Source of the DNA: Escherichia phage vB_EcoS_MM01
DNA: 43,157 bases
Sequence record: MK373793.1
Strand: one strand, 5' to 3'
Shown: positions 2,678-25,230 of the stretch, piece by piece
Layout of the letters: each line of letters starts with the position of its first letter
Numbering within the stretch: position 1 is the stretch's first letter
Notes under the pieces: model-generated
Told to the model about the DNA's origin: nothing
Seen by the model: only the letters and a program-made list of their open reading frames with translations
The model's database searches: none
Position numbers and translations under genes: made by a program

Positions 2678-2814
2678 TGGATAACTACGAATTACCAAGC
2701 CAGTGGGCTAAGAGAATGATGGATGGCGCTAAGACTGGCGAAGAGGCTATGCAGTACTTTGAACTGATGAATCTATGGAAGGAGCGGGAAGATAAAAATA
2801 GCACGAATAGCTAA
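2677..2814 (+). CDS. hypothetical protein (45 aa; C-terminus NSTNS encoded by motif A)
   Basis: internal ATG of track ORF 2608..2814 (track start is TTG); coupled to upstream stop. Confidence 0.4.
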   Translation: MDNYELPSQWAKRMMDGAKTGEEAMQYFELMNLWKEREDKNSTNS

Positions 2815-2816
2815 AA
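2797..2816 (+). repeat. junction motif A copy (aatagcacgaatagctaaaa)
   Basis: member of 13-copy family AATAGCAC-N4-TTG(C/T)TAAA; motif-B-like tatcaaaacaacgagag follows before ATG 2872. Confidence 0.6.
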
Positions 2817-2871
2817 GCATTCGCCAGGGACGGCATATAATTACCTTATCAAAACAACGAGAGATTGAGAG

Positions 2872-3111
2872 ATGTTCGGATTATCAGAAGCGCACTTCAA
2901 CGCAGTAAAACGCCAGGCGGCAAAGCTAAATGACGAGTACAGCAAGTTATCGCCAAAGCAGCGTAAGGATGACAAGCAAGTTGCAGCATTGATTTCTAAG
3001 ATGTGGGAGCCAGTTTTCACAATTATTAGCCGAGACCGATTTGTGTGGACTAGCGGTTATCTTAAGGGTCGTGTTGGTCATGATGAGAATGGTCAATCGT
3101 TGTACGAATAG
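2872..3111 (+). CDS. hypothetical protein (79 aa)
   Basis: ORF track; preceded by motif A/B unit. Confidence 0.5.
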   Translation: MFGLSEAHFNAVKRQAAKLNDEYSKLSPKQRKDDKQVAALISKMWEPVFTIISRDRFVWTSGYLKGRVGHDENGQSLYE

Positions 3112-3388
3112 ATTGGATTGTTAAAAAAGAGCTTGCATCACTGATTGGAAGTATCTAATATTAATCACGTAGACAGACGAGACCACTAAGTGGTAACGGC
3201 GCACGGAGCGCAACTACTAAGTCCGTAGCTCATTAGGTAGCGTATGCGGCAAATCACTTCCCATTATGAGCTTTATTCTCTTAGGGACTTGTAAGACCTA
3301 GCGCAAATAGTCAATCAAATCGGTCGTAACAAGCGACGCTGGAGCCGTAACCAGCAATCTTCATCTAGCAAGCCTAGCTAAAGATTAT

Positions 3389-3463
3389 GCTCTGTTAGCT
3401 TAATGGAAAAAGCCGCAGCCTTCTAAGCTGTTGATGGTGGTTCGACTCCACCACGGAGCGCCA
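3389..3463 (+). tRNA. tRNA-Arg (anticodon UCU)
   Basis: manual cloverleaf: 7-bp acceptor stem GCTCTGT/ACGGAGC (one G-U), D stem GCTT/AAGC, anticodon stem GCAGC/GCTGT with loop CTTCTAA (U33, UCU, A37), T arm GGTGG-TTCGACT-CCACC, discriminator G, encoded CCA. Confidence 0.85.
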
Positions 3464-3482
3464 AATTAAAGGAGCCCTATCA

Positions 3483-3665
3483 ATGTGGGACGTTAAGTTA
3501 TCAATCAGATTAATGGGCCGTAGTTGCAAGAATTGCACTCAAGAATACATCGCGTCAGTTGCCGCAATCAGCGCTGAGGATGCGGTAGCGAAAGTAAAAG
3601 AGATGTCGGGCGCTGACCCTGACACTCACAAATTCCTAGTAGCTTACGTTCGTGAGCGAAAGTAA
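3483..3665 (+). CDS. hypothetical protein (60 aa)
   Basis: ORF track; AGGAG-like RBS right after the tRNA. Confidence 0.45.
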   Translation: MWDVKLSIRLMGRSCKNCTQEYIASVAAISAEDAVAKVKEMSGADPDTHKFLVAYVRERK

Positions 3666-3709
3666 AAAGTGTTATACCCTCGTTTAATTTTCATCTCTCT
3701 CGTTGTTTT

Positions 3710-3733
3710 AGCCCTCGCTTGAGGGCTTTTTTT
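3710..3733 (+). terminator. rho-independent terminator
   Basis: GC hairpin gccctc-gctt-gagggc followed by T7 run. Confidence 0.6.
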
Positions 3734-3744
3734 CGTCTGCAATA

Positions 3745-3753
3745 TGCTATAAT
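3745..3753 (+). promoter_or_regulatory. extended -10 promoter element (TGcTATAAT)
   Basis: TGnTATAAT 24 nt upstream of terS start; no good -35. Confidence 0.35.
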
Positions 3754-3776
3754 CTGGAATCAACAAAGGAGGATTT

Positions 3777-4283
3777 ATGAGCAAAGCAGCATTAAAGCTA
3801 GGCGAGGGCAACTTCAAGACTCTGTATAACAAGAAGTACGGCGATATCGCAATGGTGGCAGTTAACCGCAAATATACGCCTGAAGAGGTGTTTGATTTCG
3901 CGGTGAGATACTTTACCTGGGCTGAGGGTGAATCAATTAAAGCAATTGAGACGGCGGCATTCCAGGGTGTGGTTAGTGAAAACCTTATCCATAAGCCTAG
4001 AGTTTTTACCTTAACAGGCCTGGCTTTGTTTATGGGCGTCAAGATAGGTAGCTTTGCTCGTTGGCGTTCTGAGCCAGGTTACTCTGACGTCATGGAGTTT
4101 ATTGACAACGTAATATACGAGCAGAAGTATCAGCTAGGCGTTTCTGGTATCATCAACTCCACGATTGTTGGCAAGGAACTTGGAATTGATAAGCCGCAGG
4201 AGATCACCATTAGCAACAACTCCACTGCCAACGACGTTGATAGCATGAAGGCAGCGCTGGAATCTGTGATTGGTAAGCTGTAA
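3777..4283 (+). CDS. terS: terminase small subunit (putative)
   Basis: 168-aa ORF immediately upstream of terL with strong AGGAGG RBS; assignment by position. Confidence 0.5.
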   Translation: MSKAALKLGEGNFKTLYNKKYGDIAMVAVNRKYTPEEVFDFAVRYFTWAEGESIKAIETAAFQGVVSENLIHKPRVFTLTGLALFMGVKIGSFARWRSEPGYSDVMEFIDNVIYEQKYQLGVSGIINSTIVGKELGIDKPQEITISNNSTANDVDSMKAALESVIGKL

Positions 4284-9554: not shown

Positions 9555-11096
9555 ATGGCTTTAGAATTTAGGCAAATCCTTGCTGGTAACACAGCATCAC
9601 TTAGCCGTAAGGTGCTAGAGGCAATTGCGGAAGGTTGGCAGCCATTTGATAGAGTCCTGACCGGTACTGGATCTAATACCATTGGCATGGTTGTAGCCAA
9701 GGGAACCAATGCAGACATTACCGATTTCATGGTTCTTACTGCCACCAGTCGTCAAAAGCTAATTGATAGAGTAAACGATATCACTCACGAAGGTTGGGAG
9801 GTGTTTGGCGAACCGTCATCTGAGTCAAATCAGTTTGCAGTTGCGTTAACTAAAGGATTTCAGGGTACATCCGGTAGAGATGGAATGGCTGGCCCACAAG
9901 GTCCGCAAGGTCCGCGCGGAGAGGTTGGCCCAGAAGGTCCGCAGGGTCCAAAAGGTGACGATGGTACGCCTGGTGAAAAGGGTGAGCGTGGCGCTGTAGG
10001 TCCGCAAGGACCAATTGGCCCACAGGGCATTCAAGGTCCGCAAGGAATTCAAGGTCCAGCTGGCTTAAAGGGTGATAAGGGCGATAGGGGTGATGTTGGA
10101 CCGCAAGGGACGCAAGGATTAAAAGGTGATACTGGCGAGAAAGGAGACCCTGGCGAAGTCGGGCCTGCTGGTTTAACATTCCGTGGGCAATGGGTTCCTA
10201 GCACTGGTTATACAAAAGATGACACTGTAGTTTACGGCGGCTCAACCTACTTCGCAGTTAGCAACATTGCAGAAGATGAGGAACCTGGAGTATCACCTCT
10301 GTGGGTTGTTCTTGCCGCTCAGGGTACGAAAGGTGATAAGGGTGATAAGGGTGACCCTGGTGATATCGGTCCTCAAGGTGAAAAAGGAGAAACAGGACAG
10401 CAGGGCCCAAGAGGGGTTCAGGGGCAACAAGGTATTCAAGGTTTACCAGGCGAACAGGGGCCAAAAGGTGATCAAGGATTGCAAGGAATTACTGGACCAG
10501 CCGGTCCTCAAGGACCAAAAGGTGACACTGGACCTCAGGGTATTCAAGGTCCACAAGGGATTAGAGGGGTTGCTGGAGCGGTAGGACCACAAGGACCACA
10601 GGGAGAGAGGGGCGAAAAGGGCGATAAAGGAGAAAAAGGCGAAACTGGCGCAACCGGCCCACAGGGTCCAGCAGGTCAAAATAATACAAACAATCCAGTT
10701 TATACAACTCAACTTACCGTATCGACAAGCTACTCAGCTATAGCTATACCAAACAACCCTGGCATCTCTTTTTCAGTCAGAAGGGTTGGGAATAACATTG
10801 AGTACTCTTTTGTAGGCAACTCAATTGCAGGAAGGTATTTTGATGTTGAGGTTGTAAACTTTCCATCTGCTGACGTAGTTAAGAGATATCAGTCAAACCA
10901 CACAATTGCAGGAACTAGCAGGTATGTTGTAGGTGATCCTGCTGGTTATACTGGTGGTGGATATAAAAGAATTCAATTCTCAGCTAGAGATTGGGGAGAT
11001 AAAAACATTATAATGATTGATGTTTTTCACCTTCAGCGCCCAGCTGATACTAGTTTTAACATCGCAATTAGGATTGAGACATTCAAGCTGCCATAA
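9555..11096 (+). CDS. collagen-like repeat protein (putative head or tail fibre)
   Basis: 513 aa; two long Gly-X-Y blocks (approx. aa 107-196 and 248-360) flanking a globular insert, plus non-collagenous N- and C-terminal domains. Confidence 0.8.
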
Positions 11097-15972: not shown

Positions 15973-18741
15973 ATGGCAACAAATGAATTAGCCGGAATCA
16001 CACTAGCCGTAGATGTCTCGCAGGTAGACAGGGGAACGCAGTCACTACAGAAGTTTAGGCAGGCTAACCAACAGGCCGCTTCCGGCATTAGTGAATTCGT
16101 CAACGCTGAGCAGGTTGCTAAAAACCAGGCGAGAGATACCGCGCGAGCACTTGCTGAGCAACAGGCCTCACTGGCTAAGCTGCAAACAGCCATTGATCCA
16201 ACCGCGGCAAAGTTCCGTAAACTCCAAGAGGCGGCGGTAGGTCTTGATAAGGCGTTCGCGGCTGGCGTAGTTCCTGATGAGGAGTTTTTCCGATTAGGTG
16301 AGGCGCTTGAAACGCAGAATGCAAAGCTAGCTCGCTCACGTGCGGCATTAACCGAAGAGGGTAGAGCGGCAGCGCAGGAAGCAAAGGATAAGTCAAAGGC
16401 AAAGGCTGAGGCAGATAGATTCATTGCATCACTGCAACGCCAGGCTCAAGCTGCAACATTGACGCGCGAGGAATATCTTAAGCTACAGGCGGCCCAGCTT
16501 GGCGTATCAGCGCAGGCTACACCATTAATTAACCAGATTGGCACTGCAACCCAGAGAACCGTTGAGAATCTTGGCAGGCAAGCCGCAGCATTCCAGAAGT
16601 CCGGTCTAAGCGCTGGTCAGTACAAGAATGCCATTAGTCAGCTACCAGCGCAGATTACTGACATTGGGACTTCATTGGCTGGCGGTATTCCTATCTGGTT
16701 AATTGCAATACAGCAGGGTGGTCAGATTAAGGATAGTTTCGGCGGCATCGCCAATACGGCGCGATTCCTGCTTTCTTACCTTACGCCACTAACCGCCGCC
16801 GCCGGTCTTCTTGGTGCTGGTTTCGCTTATGCAGCTGTTAGCATATACAAAAGCGAGGCCGCAATAAAGGAAGCGAGAAAGGCTATTGAGGATACACTTG
16901 GAGTTACAGGTGAATCCGCAAGAAAGCTAAGCATTAGTATTGCAAGGATCGCCGAGGCTTCAGACAAGACAGCTGAGGATATTACAAAGGCGTTCGTTTC
17001 AACAAGAGACGGAGCTCAGGAAGCAATCCTGAAACTCATTGATGTTGGTGTTAGCTACGAAGATGCAAGGGAGCTTGTTGAGAGATACAAAGACTCTTCA
17101 AACTTCACTCAGGTTAACGCTGAGATTGAAAAACACAGACTTGAAGCCGCAAAGATTAAAGATAGCTGGTTCGAGAACGCTAAGGCAGTTAGCTACTACA
17201 ATGATGTTGCGGTGCAAGGTCTAGTTAATTCGCCACTAACAAACGTTGCGGCAAGAAACAGCGCTGCAATTCAGGAGTTCGCAAGCCTTCTCGAGCAAGA
17301 TGTAAACAAAGCTCTAATTGATGGGAATAGATACGTTGCTGAGCAGGTTGATTTAATTGGTAAAGAGTACCTTGCACTTGACCGCGTGGCTGGTGCGGAG
17401 AAATCCCTTGCCGATGCAAGAAAGCAAGCTGCGGCTATTGCAAGAAGCGGTAATGCTGAAGCCATAGCTCAGGCTAATAGAGTAATTCAGCTTCGCCAGC
17501 GTGAACTTGATGAAGCCAAGAAGGCCGAAGCAGAGAGAAATAAGCCAGCCAAAACCAAAGCACCAAAGGAAGCCAGAGACCTTACCATAAATTACGAGTC
17601 AGGAGTTCTTGCGCTGGAGGCTCAATTAAGGCTGCTTAAGGATGTTGGGGGCCAGACAAAGGCGATAAGTACTGAGCGGAGGAAGCTACTTGAGGAAGAG
17701 GCTAAGTTTGCAATCCTTGAGGAGCGTCAGGCTGCTGGGACAATCGGCAGAGAGCAAGCAAGGCTTCTTCTTGAGAAAGATAAAGTTCTCGAGTTAGCCA
17801 GACAGAAGGCAGAGTTAGGCGATCAGATTGTTTTGCAGGAGAGAGCCAATAAGTTAGCCGAAGACAATAGGAAGAAGACTCTTCAGATTAACAACGAGGC
17901 AAATAACATTGATTTGGGTGCTGGTTTGTCATCTCGTGAACAGCAGAGGGCGAGAGAAATCCAGGCGCTTCAGTCCAATCAGGTTAATGCTGGCGGCGCT
18001 ATTGATGACGTAGATTTTACACAACTTCTAGAAGCAAGGCGTAACTTTTATGCTCAGGAAGATGCGCTACGTGAAAACTGGCTTGCTGGCGTGAATCAAT
18101 CCTTTGCCAATTGGGCTGAGAGCGCGACGGATGCCTTCTCAATTGCTGGAAGTTTAACCACAACCGTATTTGAGGGCATTACAGACCAGATTACCAACCT
18201 TGTAACCACTGGCGAAACAAACTTCAGGGAGTTTACTGTTAGCATCCTTAAGCAGATTGCTAAGATTGCAACCCAACTTCTTATTGTTAAGGCTATTGAG
18301 TCTAGCTTGAGTAGCTTTGGTGGTACTGGTGGCGCGATTGGCTCTATAGCATCTGCGATTGGTGGTGGATTTGCTAATGGTGGTTACACTGGCAGTGGCG
18401 GGAAATATCAACCAGCAGGCACGGTTCACAAAGGCGAGTTTGTATTCACAAAAGAAGCAACAAGCCGCATTGGTGTTAAAAACCTTTATGCACTAATGAA
18501 AGGCTATGCAAATGGCGGCGCTGTTGGTGGCTCTTCAGGATATGCAAATGGCGGCTTGGTTTCTGGTGGTTCAGATGTTAATGTTAGCGGCATTACTGTT
18601 AACGTTAATGGTGGAATTGGAAGCGACCCAGAACAGGCCAAGGCGCTGCAAAATGGCGTCAAGGCAATTGTAGCTGAAGAGATTTCTCAGTCCTTCCAGC
18701 AGGGTGGCCGTGCTTATCAGTACCTTAGAGGTTTTAACTAA
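15973..18741 (+). CDS. tail tape measure protein
   Basis: 922 aa, long Ala/Gln/Lys-rich helical region, Gly-rich C-terminus, position after G/GT. Confidence 0.8.
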   Translation: MATNELAGITLAVDVSQVDRGTQSLQKFRQANQQAASGISEFVNAEQVAKNQARDTARALAEQQASLAKLQTAIDPTAAKFRKLQEAAVGLDKAFAAGVVPDEEFFRLGEALETQNAKLARSRAALTEEGRAAAQEAKDKSKAKAEADRFIASLQRQAQAATLTREEYLKLQAAQLGVSAQATPLINQIGTATQRTVENLGRQAAAFQKSGLSAGQYKNAISQLPAQITDIGTSLAGGIPIWLIAIQQGGQIKDSFGGIANTARFLLSYLTPLTAAAGLLGAGFAYAAVSIYKSEAAIKEARKAIEDTLGVTGESARKLSISIARIAEASDKTAEDITKAFVSTRDGAQEAILKLIDVGVSYEDARELVERYKDSSNFTQVNAEIEKHRLEAAKIKDSWFENAKAVSYYNDVAVQGLVNSPLTNVAARNSAAIQEFASLLEQDVNKALIDGNRYVAEQVDLIGKEYLALDRVAGAEKSLADARKQAAAIARSGNAEAIAQANRVIQLRQRELDEAKKAEAERNKPAKTKAPKEARDLTINYESGVLALEAQLRLLKDVGGQTKAISTERRKLLEEEAKFAILEERQAAGTIGREQARLLLEKDKVLELARQKAELGDQIVLQERANKLAEDNRKKTLQINNEANNIDLGAGLSSREQQRAREIQALQSNQVNAGGAIDDVDFTQLLEARRNFYAQEDALRENWLAGVNQSFANWAESATDAFSIAGSLTTTVFEGITDQITNLVTTGETNFREFTVSILKQIAKIATQLLIVKAIESSLSSFGGTGGAIGSIASAIGGGFANGGYTGSGGKYQPAGTVHKGEFVFTKEATSRIGVKNLYALMKGYANGGAVGGSSGYANGGLVSGGSDVNVSGITVNVNGGIGSDPEQAKALQNGVKAIVAEEISQSFQQGGRAYQYLRGFN

Positions 18742-21824: not shown

Positions 21825-21873
21825 TTAGTGTAGAATGGCACAAATGATCAAAACAAACATGAGGCTTTATGAT

Positions 21874-24800
21874 ATGGCTGAAGAGATTAAGATTTATGGC
21901 GCTAAGGGTGGTAGCCAGAAGCAACACCAACCAGTAGAGCAGGAAGACAACCTTATTTCGGTGAACAAGGTTAAGGTATTGCTTGCCGTTGCTGATGGTG
22001 AGGTTGACCCTAATTTCTCCATGAAGGATTTATACCTTGCTGATGTGCCTGTTCAGAACCAGGATAACAGCTACAACTATGAAGGAGTTCGGGCAGAATT
22101 TCGCTCTGGGACTCAGTATCAGGATTACATTGCTGGGCTTGATGGTGCTAACTCAGAGATTCAGGCATCTCGTGAAATCACAAATGATACGCCTTACATC
22201 ATTGCGGTTAATAACAGTCAGCTTTCAGCAATTCGAGTTAAACTATTTTGGCCTCGACTAGTTAAACAGGAAAGCAATGGAGACCTGAATGGTACAACTT
22301 GCGAGTACGCAATTGACTTGTCTGTTAATGGTGGAGCATATCAGGAATACACTCGCGGAGTTGCAAACGGGAAGACAACAACTGGTTACGACCGTAGTAT
22401 CCGTGTAAACCTTCCGGCTGAATTTGATAGCGCGCTAGTTAGAATTCGGAAGATTACGCCTGATTCAACAATTAGCACTCTGGTTAATGGAATGCAGATT
22501 ACAACCTATCAGGAAGTGATTGACGCTAAATTCCGCTATCCGCTTACGGCTCTGGTTTACGTTGAGTTTGGCTCTGACCTGTTCCCTAATGGCATCCCGA
22601 CAATCTCTATCAAGAAGAGATGGAAACTTATTCAGGTTCCAACGAACTATAATCCAGAGACAAGAACTTATAGCGGCACATGGAATGGTCTATTTAAAAT
22701 GGCTTGGTCAAATAACCCTGCGTGGGTTCTTTATGACTTAGTAACAAACCGCCGCTATGGTCTTGACCAGCGAGAGTTGGGTGTAGAGATTGATAAGTGG
22801 GGTCTATACGAAGCCGCGCAATTCTGTGACCAGATGGTGCCGGATGGGAAAGGTGGAATGGAGCCGCGTTACCTGTGCGATATGGTTGTGCAGAATAAAG
22901 TTGAGGCCTACACGCTAATTCGTGATATCTGTTCAATATTCCGTGGCCTGACTTTCTATGATGGCGAAAAGATTGGTATCGTGGTTGATAAACCGCGAAA
23001 CCCGTCTTACATCTTCACTAATGATAACGTTGTAAACGGATTATTCAGCCGCACCTTTGCCAGTGATAAGAGTCTTTACACCACGGCAAACGTTCAGTTT
23101 GATGATGTTGAGAACAACTATCAGCAGGATGTTGAGCCAGTTTTTGAACTCGAGGCTACTCGCCGCTTTGGTTTTAACCCTGTTGATTTAACTGCTATTG
23201 GCTGTACTCGAAGAAGCGAAGCAAACAGGCGCGGTAGGTGGCTTCTAAAAACAAATCTGAGAAGCGAAACTATCAGCTTCACTACCGGACTGGAAGGCAT
23301 GATTCCGATGATTGGCGAGGTTATTGCGGTTAATGACGCAGCATGGTCTAGCAACTATCAATTAAACCTTTCTGGTCGAATCGAATCAGTGCAGGGGTTG
23401 CAGGTTTTTACCCCGTTTAAAGTTGACGCAGCACCTGGTGATAGAATCCTGCTTAACAAGCCTGACGGAAGCCCAGAGGCAAGAACCATTGCCAGCGTTT
23501 CGGAAGATGGTAGAACAATCAACCTTAACACTGCTTTCAGTTTTGTGGCTCAGCCGGATACTGTTTTCGCAATCGATAAGAACAACCTCGCGCTTCAGCA
23601 GTATGTGGTGACCGGGATTCAAAAAGCAGACACTGATGGTCAGGACTCATTTCAATATACGATTACTGCTGTAGAGTACGACCAGAACAAATACGATGAG
23701 ATTGACTACGGCGTTAACATCATTGACCGCCCAACATCAATTGTAGAGCCTGACAGATTATCGCCACCAGAAAACCTGACCGTGTCAAGCTACAGCAAGA
23801 TTGTTCAGGGATTGTCGGTTGAGACAATGGTTATTGGCTGGGATAAGGCGCCATACGCTAAAACATACAATGTTCAGTGGAGAAAAGAGAATGGTAACTG
23901 GATTAACGTACCCAGAACAGCTAGCACAGAAGTTGATATCGAGGGCATTTACGCAGGAATCTATGACGTTAGGGTTCGCAGCGTATCAGATACTGAAAAC
24001 GTGTCTGCATGGTCTGGTATTGTAACAAGAAGCCTTACTGGAAAGATTGGTAAGCCACCAAAGCTGCAGGTTATAACGGCGACTGATGACGAAGTTTTCG
24101 GAATTAGAGTTAAGTGGGGCTTTGCAGATGGTAGTGGCGACACTGCATACACAGAGCTTCAGCAGGTAGAGGACAATGGCGATGGCACATACAATCCAGA
24201 CAATGCAAGTTTACTTACTTTGGTTCCGTATCCTCAATATGAATATTGGCACTCTCCAATACAACCGGGTAAGGTTATTTGGTATAGGGCAAGAATCATA
24301 GACAGAATCGGAAACACTTCTGATTGGACTGATTTTGTTAGAGGTATGAGTACTGACGATGCGCAAAAGATAGCTGAGTACATTAAGGTTGATATAGAGC
24401 AGTCTGAAGGTTTTAAATACCTACAGCAGAATGCAATTGAGAAAAACCAGGACATTCAGAATCAAGCTGAGGCAATTATCGAGAACGCGTTGGCTAATGA
24501 TGGTGATGTTCGAAGAATGACAAAGGAGAATGGCAAACGTAAGGCTGAATATGTTCAGGCGGTTAATCTTATAGCTAATGAAACTGAGGCGCGTGTAGAG
24601 GCTCTCACGCAGCTTAAAGCGCAGATAGATGACGAGGTTGTGGCGTCAATTAGTGAAGTTCAGACAGCGCTAGCCACAGAGACCGAAGCAAGGACTACAG
24701 CTGACACAGCATTATCTGCAAGATTGGGTGATAATGAAGCAGCTCTAAACCAGAAGCTAGACGCTTTCTCTAATGCTACATCAACTGGCGTACAGTACGG

Positions 24801-25230
24801 AATAAGCCTTGGTCTTAAATACAATGGACAGACCTATTCATCTGGCATGAGTATGGAGCTAGTTGGCACTGGTGGAAATGTTCGCAGTCAGTTCATATTT
24901 GACGCAAACAGATTCGCCATAAGTAATGGCATTGGTTCTGGTTCCGGTCAGTGGCAATTGCCTTTCGTTGTCGAGAATGGGAGCGTAATCATCCAAAGCG
25001 CAGTTATCGGCGATGGTTCAATCAGTAACGCGAAGATTGGTAACTTTATTCAGTCAAACAATTACGTGGCTAACACTACCGGTTGGAGACTTGATAAAGG
25101 TGGCACATTCGAGAATAACGGGTCAACACCTGGTGAAGGTAGAATGAAGCAGACTAACCAAACAATTTCTGTAGCAGATGCAAATGGAAGGCTTCGTGTT
25201 CAGATTGGTCGTTTAACTGGAGTATACTAA
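21874..25230 (+). CDS. central tail fibre / host specificity protein (lambda gpJ-like)
   Basis: N-terminus GAKGGSQKQHQP...LISVNKVKVLLAVADGEVD and internal TPDSTISTL...YPLTALVYVEF match the lambda J pattern; start chosen at ATG 21874 with GAGG RBS (track 21835). Confidence 0.85.
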   Translation: MAEEIKIYGAKGGSQKQHQPVEQEDNLISVNKVKVLLAVADGEVDPNFSMKDLYLADVPVQNQDNSYNYEGVRAEFRSGTQYQDYIAGLDGANSEIQASREITNDTPYIIAVNNSQLSAIRVKLFWPRLVKQESNGDLNGTTCEYAIDLSVNGGAYQEYTRGVANGKTTTGYDRSIRVNLPAEFDSALVRIRKITPDSTISTLVNGMQITTYQEVIDAKFRYPLTALVYVEFGSDLFPNGIPTISIKKRWKLIQVPTNYNPETRTYSGTWNGLFKMAWSNNPAWVLYDLVTNRRYGLDQRELGVEIDKWGLYEAAQFCDQMVPDGKGGMEPRYLCDMVVQNKVEAYTLIRDICSIFRGLTFYDGEKIGIVVDKPRNPSYIFTNDNVVNGLFSRTFASDKSLYTTANVQFDDVENNYQQDVEPVFELEATRRFGFNPVDLTAIGCTRRSEANRRGRWLLKTNLRSETISFTTGLEGMIPMIGEVIAVNDAAWSSNYQLNLSGRIESVQGLQVFTPFKVDAAPGDRILLNKPDGSPEARTIASVSEDGRTINLNTAFSFVAQPDTVFAIDKNNLALQQYVVTGIQKADTDGQDSFQYTITAVEYDQNKYDEIDYGVNIIDRPTSIVEPDRLSPPENLTVSSYSKIVQGLSVETMVIGWDKAPYAKTYNVQWRKENGNWINVPRTASTEVDIEGIYAGIYDVRVRSVSDTENVSAWSGIVTRSLTGKIGKPPKLQVITATDDEVFGIRVKWGFADGSGDTAYTELQQVEDNGDGTYNPDNASLLTLVPYPQYEYWHSPIQPGKVIWYRARIIDRIGNTSDWTDFVRGMSTDDAQKIAEYIKVDIEQSEGFKYLQQNAIEKNQDIQNQAEAIIENALANDGDVRRMTKENGKRKAEYVQAVNLIANETEARVEALTQLKAQIDDEVVASISEVQTALATETEARTTADTALSARLGDNEAALNQKLDAFSNATSTGVQYGISLGLKYNGQTYSSGMSMELVGTGGNVRSQFIFDANRFAISNGIGSGSGQWQLPFVVENGSVIIQSAVIGDGSISNAKIGNFIQSNNYVANTTGWRLDKGGTFENNGSTPGEGRMKQTNQTISVADANGRLRVQIGRLTGVY

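What the first reader, a model, noticed from the sequence alone, without database searches (positions are those of the whole stretch)
3112..3463. tRNA-Arg(UCU) preceded by 277 bp of non-coding DNA and a 10-bp repeat of its 3' end
A well-folded tRNA-Arg(UCU) with encoded CCA lies between the early genes and terS. AGA/AGG are rare codons in enterobacteria, so a phage copy could support late translation. The upstream 277 bp has stops in all frames. It contains CACGGAGCGC at 3202-3211, identical to the tRNA 3' acceptor strand at 3452-3461. This may be a remnant of a second tRNA or a former attachment core.
Basis: partly seen in the sequence, partly recalled or inferred. Interest (0 to 1): 0.4.

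Follow-up and report, generated by a model that had tools for sequence, protein, structure and literature searches.

The report
Conserved phage leader RNA before tRNA-Arg
The "empty" 277 bases in front of this phage's arginine tRNA gene are not junk or a dead tRNA: they hold a promoter and a folded leader RNA that is conserved across the whole T1 phage family, matched no family in Rfam 15, and has no known function.

Summary
tRNA-Arg(UCU) lies at 3389-3463 with an encoded CCA. The region 3112-3388 has stops in all six frames. CACGGAGCGC occurs only at 3202 and 3452.

The interpretation (dead second tRNA or old attachment core) does not hold. The window is an Rtp/ACG-M12-like virulent coliphage (Drexlerviridae, Braunvirinae). 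The 277 bp contain a sigma-70-type promoter (TTGCAT-17-TAATAT, 3133-3161) and a leader RNA of about 220 nt (3169-3388).

- The leader's hairpins keep pairing through compensatory changes, as well as the tRNA's own helices do.
- Its two end modules recur in T1, Tlsvirus, Nouzillyvirus, Vilniusvirus and Webervirus, always just downstream of the same promoter geometry.
- There the leader is followed either by a ribosome-binding site or by an inserted tRNA (Arg-UCU, Arg-CCU or Ser-GCU).

The 10-mer is the loop plus 3' stem of leader hairpin H3. Other genera have a hairpin at that position with unrelated sequence, and the closest relative, ACG-M12, lacks the match. The repeat is best read as coincidence.

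The tRNA itself is ordinary and already annotated in relatives. AGA is the phage's commonest Arg codon. The leader matches nothing in Rfam 15 and I found no paper describing it. Its function is inferred only: most likely a separately acting RNA released by RNase P.

The parts
3118..3131 (+). A-rich tract TTGTTAAAAAAGAG just upstream of the -35 hexamer (possible UP element)
   Evidence: Conserved in all 16 Braunvirinae loci that match the promoter anchor. The role is inferred.
3133..3161 (+). Sigma-70-type promoter: -35 TTGCAT (3133-3138), 17-nt spacer, -10 TAATAT (3156-3161)
   Evidence: The same geometry (-35 TTGAC-like, 17-18 nt spacer, TAnnnT, then 6-7 nt to the G of GUAGAC) holds with different hexamers. 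ES has TTGACA/TACATT, XGG-1 TTGACA/TATATT, T1 TTGACC/TAGTAT, LL5 TTGACG/TAGATT, PMM-G3 TTGACG/TAACTT. The simple consensus scan did not call it in the window. No transcript data are available.
3169..3388 (+). Structured leader RNA, about 220 nt, from the inferred start (GUAGACAGACGAG) to the base before the tRNA
   Evidence: Found in 88 GenBank Braunvirinae records and in metagenome contigs. In every locus that reaches far enough downstream it is directly followed by a tRNA-Arg. 99.3% of cells are paired and 16 pairs show double changes, against 8.7 in shuffles (0 of 500 reach it). No Rfam hit at E <= 10. It is single-copy in the window.
3182..3194 (+). Hairpin H2 (ACCAC-UAA-GUGGU)
   Evidence: Four of five pairs covary: GC/CG/AU, CG/AU, AU/UA/GC. 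A hairpin is present at the same place in all genera.
3199..3211 (+). Hairpin H3 (GCGC-ACGGA-GCGC).
   Evidence: Invariant within Braunvirinae except for the loop in DTL. A hairpin sits at the same position after AACG, with other stems, in T1 (GUGAGA/UCUCAC), HazelMika (GCAGC/GCUGC), L120 (GCAUC/GAUGC), phage 36 (GUGGC/GCCAC) and LL5.
3223..3249 (+). Hairpin H4 (CCGU-A-GCU-CAUUAGGU-AGC-GUA-UGCGG)
   Evidence: One pair changes G-C to A-U in TR2 and ES. One pair varies U-G/C-G/U-A.
3255..3291 (+). Clade-specific inserted hairpin
   Evidence: Present only in the window and ACG-M12. Other clades carry other inserts at this place.
3297..3310 (+). Hairpin H5 (CCUA-GCGCAAA-UAG)
   Evidence: Nearly invariant. 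Absent from TR2 and ES. The outer pair is broken in the window.
3323..3337 (+). Hairpin H6 (GUCGU-AACAA-GCGAC), preceded by conserved UCGG
   Evidence: Three of five pairs covary, and a U-G pair fixes the + strand as the RNA strand. Model R1 scores 68 bits here, 34.8 bits in LL5 and 20.7 bits in phage 36.
3338..3355 (+). Hairpin H7 (GCUGG-AGCCGUAA-CCAGC), directly abutting H6
   Evidence: Always 5 bp, with seven stem variants across genera. The loop always ends in CGUAA at the 3' stem, except in the second JulesPiccard copy, which ends in CAUAA.
3356..3386 (+). Clade-specific hairpin H8 just before the tRNA
   Evidence: AAUCUU/AAGAUU in the window against AAUCCUU/AAGGAUU in ES. The inner stem is CUAG/CUAG against UAGCG/CGCUA.
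3389..3463 (+). tRNA-Arg(UCU) with encoded CCA
   Evidence: ARAGORN. Rfam tRNA 64.6 bits. Annotated in ACG-M12 and relatives.
3468..3665 (+). Ribosome-binding site AAAGGAG and a 60-aa ORF (rtp17-like, phrog_2919) in the same unit
   Evidence: ORF list. phrog_2919, E = 8e-29. Homologues in 790 phage records.
3710..3733 (+). Intrinsic terminator that closes the unit
   Evidence: 7-bp GC-rich stem followed by T7. Conserved in T1, LL5, XGG-1 and PMM-G3. Annotated in T1 and EC3a.
3745..3753 (+). Extended -10 promoter-like element TGCTATAAT for terS (context only, not part of the leader unit)
   Evidence: Conserved after the terminator across genera: TGGTAAAAT, TGGTATAAT, TGATATACT.

Best explanation
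The 277 bp are the promoter and the 5' leader RNA of a small self-contained transcription unit: promoter, leader, tRNA-Arg(UCU), a 60-aa ORF, then a terminator.

Proposed sequence of events:
1. Host RNA polymerase starts at about 3169.
2. The roughly 220-nt leader folds into a series of hairpins (H2-H8).
3. RNase P, in making the tRNA's 5' end, cuts at 3388/3389 and so releases the leader.
4. The tRNA supplies AGA decoding for a phage whose commonest Arg codon is AGA.

The leader is older than the tRNA. The same promoter, the same 5' module (GUAGAC..GAG, H2, AACG, H3) and the same 3' module (UCGG, H6 abutting H7 with a loop ending in CGUAA, then an A-rich linker) occur across Drexlerviridae, including T1. 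In those phages the leader runs either into a ribosome-binding site or into an inserted tRNA.

Because the leader stayed conserved after tRNAs were inserted between it and the ribosome-binding site, I infer that it acts on its own rather than as a spacer or translational operator. It is most likely a stable, protein-binding RNA freed by processing.

Shown: the anatomy, the conservation, the covariation, and which strand is the RNA strand.
Inferred: the transcription start, the RNase P release, and above all the leader's function. My confidence in the 'separately acting RNA' step is about 0.3.
For: - Identity of the phage: 93% identical to ACG-M12.
- Distribution: the leader is present in 88 Braunvirinae records. 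In every locus that reaches far enough downstream it is directly followed by a tRNA-Arg.
- Covariation: 16 pairs with double changes against 8.7 in shuffles (0 of 500 reach it); slid controls give 0-2; 99.3% of cells are paired. H2, H6 and H7 covary as well as the tRNA's own helices. RNAalifold predicts the same hairpins. U-G pairs in H4, H6 and H7 fix the + strand.
- Spread to other genera: models trained only on Braunvirinae hit other genera at the expected spot. R2 (5' module) gives XGG-1 26.3 bits, T1-type 17-20 bits (E 0.0008-0.008), L120, HazelMika and PMM-G3. R1 (3' module) gives LL5 34.8 bits and phage 36 20.7 bits.
- Promoter geometry is conserved while the hexamers differ.
- tRNAs lie between the conserved linker (..AUUCA..) and the ribosome-binding site: Arg-UCU, Arg-CCU or Ser-GCU, with an extra Ile-like tRNA in EC3a.
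- H3 is a position-conserved hairpin with unrelated sequences in other genera.
- AGA is 27% of Arg codons.
- No Rfam family matches at E <= 10. No paper describing the leader was found.
Against: - There are no transcript data, so the promoter, the start site and the RNase P release are inferred.
- The simple promoter scan did not call the window's promoter: by my count 3 and 4 matches in the two hexamers, 7 of 12, where the scan needs 9.
- Folding energy is not unusual (z = -0.6 to -1.2).
- T1-type matches to the 3' module are individually weak (12.9 bits, E about 0.2). The sequence-only HMM sees T1 only at E of 2-8.
- H3 and H5 never vary within Braunvirinae, so they carry no covariation there.
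- Nothing computed here says what the leader does.
Confidence: 0.72

Rival explanations
1. One reading: the upstream DNA is decaying non-coding sequence, and its 10-mer is a relic of a second tRNA's 3' end or of an old attachment core at a tRNA gene.
For: An exact 10-mer matches the acceptor 3' strand, against 0.03 expected in the window. tRNAs have come and gone at this locus: a second tRNA in EC3a and different tRNAs in other genera.
Against: - The region is conserved with compensatory changes, which is not decay.
- The tRNA model finds nothing there at E <= 10.
- The promoter lies only about 30 nt upstream of the 10-mer, leaving no room for a tRNA body.
- H3 has non-tRNA-like counterparts in other genera.
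- The match is missing in ACG-M12 and others.
- The 1.3% chance level is not extreme for one of many things a reader could notice.
- No integrase was found among ten large ORFs.
Confidence: 0.03
2. Acceptor-strand mimic: the CGGAGC in H3 pairs with the tRNA's 5' acceptor strand (GCUCUG) in the primary transcript. This encloses the leader and delays or controls tRNA folding and RNase P cleavage.
For: RNAalifold chose this long-range helix. It can form in 98.5% of cells across 22 sequences, with G-U to G-C changes tolerated. Two divergent tRNA-Arg alleles keep the same acceptor stem.
Against: - There is no double-sided covariation.
- The Rtp tRNA change (U3 to C) and the DTL leader change (G to U) are not compensated.
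- The H3 sequence is unchanged in TR2 and ES, whose tRNA acceptor differs.
- Nothing comparable exists in HazelMika. In XGG-1, H3 has another sequence, and a CGGAGC that could pair with that tRNA's 5' strand lies elsewhere in the leader (read).
- The tRNA's own 7-bp stem should win thermodynamically.
Confidence: 0.08
3. Polymerase-modifying leader (put-like or nut-like): the nascent hairpins bind the transcribing RNA polymerase, or a factor, and make it resistant to the terminator at 3710-3733. Transcripts from this promoter would then run on into terS and the late genes.
For: It is a promoter-proximal, conserved, multi-hairpin RNA with two directly abutting hairpins. HK022 put is about 70 nt with two stem-loops just after the promoter, and its action does not depend on tethering of the putRNA to the elongation complex by the nascent transcript (PMC9378689). 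A conserved strong terminator lies between this unit and terS. The leader stayed conserved after tRNA insertion, which fits a co-transcriptional role.
Against: - terS has its own conserved extended -10 promoter right after the terminator in every genus examined, so read-through is not needed.
- No sequence relationship to put was tested.
- No second copy of the leader exists in the window.
- Upstream early transcripts would also carry the leader, so the terminator would not insulate anything.
Confidence: 0.12
4. Ordinary cis-acting 5' UTR: the hairpins are a translational operator or a stability element for the small ORFs that follow (its ancestral state in T1 and LL5). In the window it persists only by inertia.
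For: In T1, LL5, phage 36, L120 and PMM-G3 the leader ends 9-25 nt before a ribosome-binding site.
Against: In Braunvirinae, XGG-1 and HazelMika a processed tRNA separates the leader from the ribosome-binding site. The leader still shows purifying selection and compensatory changes within Braunvirinae. The first hairpin starts 13 nt from the 5' end, which by my knowledge of 5'-terminal stabilising hairpins is too far to act as one.
Confidence: 0.12
5. DNA-level element: an origin, a pac site or a protein operator rather than an RNA.
For: The element lies about 400 bp upstream of terS. Short motifs of the form (G/C)CGTAA recur 2-4 times (read from the sequences).
Against: G-U pairs on the + strand would be A-C mismatches on the other strand. 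The element starts at a fixed distance from a promoter. The T1 record marks its terminal repeat at 1-2800, about 7.6 kb from its leader, so packaging would start far from it (my inference).
Confidence: 0.04

Closest known systems
Phage-encoded tRNA-Arg(UCU) genes of Rtp/ACG-M12-like coliphages
   Same: The tRNA at 3389-3463 is the gene already annotated in ACG-M12, SU57, EC3a, JulesPiccard and others, at the same position between rtp15-like and rtp17-like genes.
   Different: None for the tRNA itself. None of those records annotates the leader: the features under the match are listed as 'none' for most records, and a few place a hypothetical-protein or repressor CDS over it.
HK022 put RNAs (cis-acting antiterminator RNAs)
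   Same: A promoter-proximal, phage-encoded, multi-hairpin RNA with adjacent stem-loops. Its action would not depend on tethering by the nascent transcript (PMC9378689).
   Different: Put is about 70 nt and occurs in lambdoid phages upstream of terminators that must be passed. Here the downstream genes have their own promoter. The leader is 55-360 nt and modular. No sequence or functional link has been shown.
T4 stable RNAs 'species 1 and 2' (rnaC, rnaD) in the T4 tRNA cluster (from my knowledge, not tested here)
   Same: Non-tRNA structured RNAs that are co-transcribed with phage tRNAs, released by tRNA-processing enzymes, and still of unknown function.
   Different: They come from a different phage family. 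No sequence comparison was made. The T4 RNAs lie inside a multi-tRNA cluster, whereas this leader predates the tRNA and also exists without one.
Spacer-derived regulatory RNAs from tRNA transcripts, such as E. coli 3'ETS-leuZ (from my knowledge)
   Same: A functional RNA produced as a by-product of tRNA precursor processing.
   Different: 3'ETS-leuZ is a short, Hfq-dependent sponge from a 3' spacer. This is a long structured 5' leader with no terminator-type 3' end.
Anticodon-arm mimics such as the thrS operator (from my knowledge)
   Same: H7 has a 5-bp stem, and its loop ends in CGUAA right at the 3' stem. That matches C34-G35-U36-A37-A38 of tRNA-Thr(CGU). In T1 and HazelMika the H6 loop AUAGUGGU(U)AA resembles a D-loop.
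   Different: The loops are 8-12 nt, not 7. The tRNA covariance model gives no hit. This is a resemblance only.

Membership tests
tRNA (Rfam RF00005), for 3389-3463 | Cloverleaf that scores above the curated threshold of the tRNA covariance model | tested here: met
   64.6 bits against a gathering score of 29, full-length model match 1-71.
tRNA (Rfam RF00005), for 3389-3463 | Anticodon in a 7-nt loop, assignable to an amino acid | tested here: met
   ARAGORN reports tRNA-Arg with anticodon tct at position 34.
tRNA remnant or pseudogene, for 3112-3388 | Residual similarity to the tRNA model | tested here: not met
   No tRNA hit in 3112-3388 at E <= 10. None in the T1 leader either.
tRNA remnant or pseudogene, for 3112-3388 | Neutral decay: no constraint, no compensatory change | tested here: not met
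   Hairpins H2, H4, H6 and H7 keep pairing through double changes. Of the 16 double-change pairs in the whole structure, 10 lie in these leader hairpins.
Phage attachment core at a tRNA gene | Integrase gene in the phage | tested here: not met
   Ten large ORFs gave tail, primase zinc-ribbon, Cro-like, helicase, ERF, HNH, DUF3987 and DUF7174 matches, and two gave no Pfam match; none was an integrase. Not every ORF was scanned.
Phage attachment core at a tRNA gene | Core identical to the 3' end of a host tRNA gene | tested here: inconclusive
   The leader has no match in 5,426 E. coli genomes at E <= 10, but a 10-nt core is too short for that search to detect.
HK022-type put RNA | About 70 nt, two stem-loops, just downstream of a promoter | tested here: inconclusive
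   The leader is promoter-proximal and has abutting hairpins H6 and H7, but it is 220 nt with at least seven hairpins. Put anatomy is taken from PMC9378689.
HK022-type put RNA | Suppresses downstream terminators by binding the RNA polymerase beta' zinc-binding domain | not testable with these tools
   This needs transcription assays. The independent terS promoter after the terminator argues that read-through is not required.
Any described RNA family (Rfam 15) | A match to one of 4,227 covariance models | tested here: not met
   No hit in 3112-3388 at E <= 10. No hit in the T1 leader. Only the two tRNAs hit in EC3a 1900-2330.
Protein-coding gene, for 3112-3388 | An open reading frame conserved among relatives | tested here: not met
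   Six to nine stops in every frame. Indels among relatives are hairpin-sized and not multiples of three.

The most novel reading that the evidence does not exclude
The leader is a previously undescribed RNA class of the whole T1 family (Drexlerviridae) that works in trans after release by RNase P, or by RNase E in phages without the tRNA. One specific version: its abutting H6 and H7 hairpins mimic the D-arm and anticodon arm of an ANN-reading tRNA (loop ending ..NGU-A-A). They would act as a decoy or recruiter for a host protein that recognises such anticodon arms, such as a tRNA-targeting defence nuclease, a modification enzyme or a synthetase. That would also explain why only ANN-reading tRNAs (Arg-UCU, Arg-CCU, Ser-GCU, Ile-UAU) have settled next to it.
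Probability: 0.1. Interest if true: 0.75.

Novelty: new variant of a known kind. Interest (0 to 1): 0.5.

Why it matters
T1 is one of the classical coliphages, and its relatives are among the commonest phages isolated on E. coli and Klebsiella and considered for therapy. How they regulate their genes is still largely unknown; a recent paper on phage TLS lists open questions of this kind (PMC11447400).

A family-wide, strongly conserved structured RNA sits at one of the few clear sigma-70 promoters. It lies next to a site where rare-codon tRNAs are repeatedly gained. That makes it a concrete, testable candidate for a regulatory or anti-host RNA.

For annotation, it also shows that the "gap" upstream of the tRNA in hundreds of deposited genomes is a feature, not filler. 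Short sequence repeats of tRNA ends should not be read as attachment cores without comparative data.

Tried and rejected
- Second tRNA or tRNA relic: the Rfam tRNA model gives nothing at E <= 10.
- Helix ACGGA/UCCGU (3203-3207 with 3222-3226): rejected. TR2 and ES change UCCGU to UCCAU and compensate inside H4 (G-C to A-U), not with ACGGA.
- Long-range helix between H3 and the tRNA's 5' strand: compatible but shows no covariation, and it is not conserved outside Braunvirinae.
- boxA-like UGCUCAUUA in H4: one mismatch to the rrn boxA consensus (from memory), but it lies partly inside a stem and is absent from other genera (read).
- T-box-like specifier (AGA in UUAAGACC): that module is absent from TR2 and ES, and ES has no AGG counterpart.
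- CsrA-type site (CACGGAG in the H3 loop): motif resemblance only, and not conserved in other genera.
- Pseudoknot between UCGG and the CCG of the H7 loop: supported by the second JulesPiccard copy but broken in TR2 and ES.
- Complementarity to the host: no match in E. coli genomes, although the database is too large to detect short seeds.
- Second copy of the leader in the window: none.
- Thermodynamic stability test: not significant.
- IMG/VR scan with a 16-nt degenerate pattern: mostly chance hits. Two metagenome pattern hits, L095 and L097, were chance.
- Structure of the rtp17-like protein: a confident model but no significant fold match.
- Literature searches for a described RNA in these phages found nothing relevant.

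Full report
**1. Checking the observation**

ARAGORN finds a single tRNA in the window, tRNA-Arg(tct) at 3389-3463 on the + strand. The Rfam tRNA model gives 64.6 bits against a threshold of 29. CCA is encoded at the 3' end.

The 277 nt from 3112 to 3388 carry 6-9 stop codons in each of the six frames. CACGGAGCGC occurs only at 3202-3211 and 3452-3461, against 0.03 expected in the window.

**2. What the window is**

Region 2800-3800 is 93% identical to Escherichia phage ACG-M12 (Drexlerviridae, Braunvirinae, Guelphvirus). It matches 83 phage records in all. In those records the tRNA-Arg is annotated between an rtp15-like and an rtp17-like gene, upstream of terS. terS is confirmed here by Pfam GP3_package and phrog_606.

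Ten large ORFs gave tail, primase zinc-ribbon, Cro-like, helicase, ERF recombinase, HNH, DUF3987 and DUF7174 matches, and two gave no Pfam match. None was an integrase.

**3. The upstream DNA is conserved, not decaying**

An alignment with four relatives showed that everything from about 3117 to the tRNA is kept. Differences fall as paired changes in hairpins or as whole-hairpin insertions.

A blastn search with the 277 nt alone finds 88 records, all Braunvirinae-type genomes. A metagenome scan adds about ten more contigs. In every locus that extends far enough downstream, the element is followed directly by a tRNA-Arg: UCU in most, CCU in TR2 and ES.

**4. Promoter**

The conserved block opens with TTGCAT, 17 nt, TAATAT (3133-3161), then 7 nt, then GUAGAC. 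In phage ES the hexamers are TTGACA and TACATT at the same distances.

In other genera the same layout holds with near-consensus -35 boxes: XGG-1, T1, HazelMika, LL5, PMM-G3 and L120. The simple scan did not call the window's promoter: I count 7 of 12 consensus matches, and the scan requires 9. The promoter and the start at about 3169 are therefore inferred from comparative geometry, not shown.

**5. RNA structure**

RNAalifold on 17 sequences predicts hairpins, with 10 pairs showing compensatory changes. I then fixed a structure on 22 distinct leader-plus-tRNA sequences (A3).

- 99.3% of cells are paired.
- 16 pairs have double changes, against 8.7 in shuffles (0 of 500 reach it).
- Partners slid by 1-3 columns give only 0-2 such pairs.
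- Leader hairpins H2 (4 of 5 pairs), H6 (3 of 5) and H7 (2 of 5) covary as strongly as the tRNA's anticodon and acceptor stems. H4 has one compensatory pair.
- U-G pairs in H4, H6 and H7 identify the + strand as the RNA strand.

Single-sequence folding energies are unremarkable, with z between -0.6 and -1.2.

**6. The leader is older and wider than Braunvirinae**

tblastn with the rtp17-like 60-aa protein finds 790 Drexlerviridae records. I looked upstream of that gene in other genera.

| Phage (genus) | What follows the leader |
|---|---|
| BUCT-XGG-1 (Nouzillyvirus) | tRNA-Arg(CCU) |
| HazelMika (Vilniusvirus) | tRNA-Ser(GCU) |
| LL5, phage 36 (Tlsvirus) | ribosome-binding site, no tRNA |
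| PMM-G3 (Webervirus) | ribosome-binding site, short leader |
| T1 and about 20 T1-like contigs | ribosome-binding site of gp57, no tRNA |

The shared anatomy, in order, is:
- GUAGAC..GAG
- hairpin H2
- AACG
- hairpin H3
- a variable middle
- UCGG
- H6 directly abutting a 5-bp H7 whose loop ends in CGUAA
- an A-rich linker (..AUUCA..)
- then a ribosome-binding site or a tRNA

Seven different H7 stems all keep 5 bp.

Covariance models trained only on Braunvirinae support the homology objectively.
- The 5' module model hits XGG-1 (26.3 bits), T1-type leaders (17-20 bits, E 0.0008-0.008), L120, HazelMika and PMM-G3.
- The 3' module model hits LL5 (34.8 bits, E 2.6e-9) and phage 36 (20.7 bits). 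T1-type hits are weak (12.9 bits) but at the right position.
- A sequence-only HMM sees XGG-1 (E 0.0017) and barely sees T1.
- Both modules are single-copy in the window.

**7. What the 10-mer is**

Positions 3199-3211 form hairpin H3 (GCGC-ACGGA-GCGC). The 10-mer is the last base of its 5' stem, its loop and its 3' stem.

Within Braunvirinae this block is invariant, apart from a loop change in DTL. In other genera a hairpin sits at exactly this place after AACG, with unrelated stems: GUGAGA/UCUCAC in T1, GCAGC/GCUGC in HazelMika, GCAUC/GAUGC in L120, GUGGC/GCCAC in phage 36.

The match to the tRNA's 3' end varies among relatives:

| Match length | Phages |
|---|---|
| 10 nt | window, IME542 |
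| 8 nt (CGGAGCGC) | most Braunvirinae |
| absent | ACG-M12 (closest relative; tRNA has ACGGGGC), FP, DTL, TR2, ES, XGG-1, HazelMika |

Other 8-mers are shared between leader and tRNA at unrelated places in TR2 and HazelMika. This agrees with the 18% of shuffles that share an 8-mer and the 1.3% that share a 10-mer.

A long-range helix between CGGAGC and the tRNA's 5' strand can form in 98.5% of cells, but it shows no double covariation and two uncompensated breaks. I read the repeat as coincidence. I leave a small probability for a role as an acceptor-strand mimic.

**8. The tRNA's likely role**

In 52 ORFs of the window AGA is 13.6 per 1000 codons and the commonest Arg codon (27%). AGG is 7.6 and AUA 11.2 per 1000. 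All three are rare in E. coli (my knowledge). The codon-supply idea is therefore plausible, though not tested.

All tRNAs seen at this locus read ANN codons. That includes a second tRNA in EC3a and PCEc3 with a UAU anticodon and a long extra arm.

**9. How the leader might work**

The unit ends at a strong terminator (3710-3733). This is followed at once by an extended -10 element before terS. The terminator-promoter pair is conserved in T1, LL5, XGG-1 and PMM-G3. The late genes therefore do not need read-through, which lowers the put-like antitermination reading; put anatomy is taken from PMC9378689.

The tRNAs lie between the conserved linker and the ribosome-binding site, and RNase P must cut the leader off there. 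Yet the leader stayed under structural constraint afterwards. That argues against a pure translational operator or spacer. It favours an RNA that acts on its own after release, or while still nascent.

This step is inference. My confidence in it is about 0.3. My confidence that the region is a promoter plus a conserved structured leader RNA is high.

**10. Comparison with what is known, and novelty**

The tRNA is already annotated in relatives. The leader matches no Rfam 15 family at E <= 10. Most of the GenBank records examined annotate nothing over it, and none annotates an RNA there. It did not turn up in four literature searches.

The closest analogues are:
- put RNAs
- the T4 stable RNAs co-transcribed with tRNAs
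- spacer-derived RNAs from tRNA transcripts

For none of these was membership shown. I rate the finding a new variant of a known kind (a structured leader RNA).

The original claim (tRNA plus repeat) is ordinary. The re-interpretation has moderate interest.

Noticed in passing
L004 2203-2301 (phage EC3a); also PCEc3 L002 2504-2605: A second tRNA lies right after tRNA-Arg. It scores 41.3 bits on the Rfam tRNA model, has anticodon loop CUUAUAC (UAU, Ile/AUA) and an extra arm of about 27 nt. ARAGORN misses it, and it is absent from the window. All tRNAs seen at this locus read ANN codons.
   Followed up: partly
L010 (JulesPiccard) about 1062-1118: The H6-H7-linker module of the leader is duplicated in tandem. 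The second copy has a changed H7 loop (AAUCAUAA) and sits next to the tRNA.
   Followed up: partly
window 3710-3753: An intrinsic terminator is followed immediately by an extended -10 element (TGCTATAAT) before terS. This pair is conserved in T1, LL5, XGG-1 and PMM-G3, which fits the idea of modular 'transcriptons' in T1-like phages.
   Followed up: partly
window 3483-3665: The rtp17-like 60-aa protein is present in 790 Drexlerviridae records and has an invariant CxxC. The AlphaFold model is confident (pLDDT 88.6, beta-beta-alpha-beta). Fold matches are only weak: PurS, archaeal/eukaryotic large-subunit ribosomal proteins, and Bacillus RNA polymerase complexes, in chains I take from memory to be the epsilon subunit; all have E > 0.1. 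One GenBank record calls it a putative RNA polymerase inhibitor.
   Followed up: partly
window, whole: AGA is the commonest Arg codon (163 of 596). AGG (91) and AUA (11.2 per 1000) are also frequent. The long ORFs at 15973-18741 and 21835-25230 carry 21 AGA codons each.
   Followed up: yes
window 9593-9616: A hairpin AGCAUC-ACUUAGCCGUAA-GGUGCU lies inside an ORF. Its loop ends like the leader's H7 loop (..GCCGUAA). This may be chance.
   Followed up: no
GenBank records PP134917 (PsgS01F), MG065688 (A110b), MG065640 (A14b): Genomes deposited as Pseudomonas or Campylobacter phages are ordinary E. coli-type Braunvirinae/Drexlerviridae by sequence. The host labels look doubtful.
   Followed up: no
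L111 1426-1683 (HazelMika CDS 86): The annotated CDS overlaps tRNA-Ser (1394-1481). The conserved protein starts at ATG 1498, so the annotated start is probably too far upstream.
   Followed up: partly
L110 about 1312-1392 (BUCT-XGG-1): In the unannotated gap of about 220 nt after the tRNA there is a short ORF (MKIVTVIVKDTVTGSISKYNQRLKGG). By eye it resembles the start of T1 gp57.
   Followed up: no
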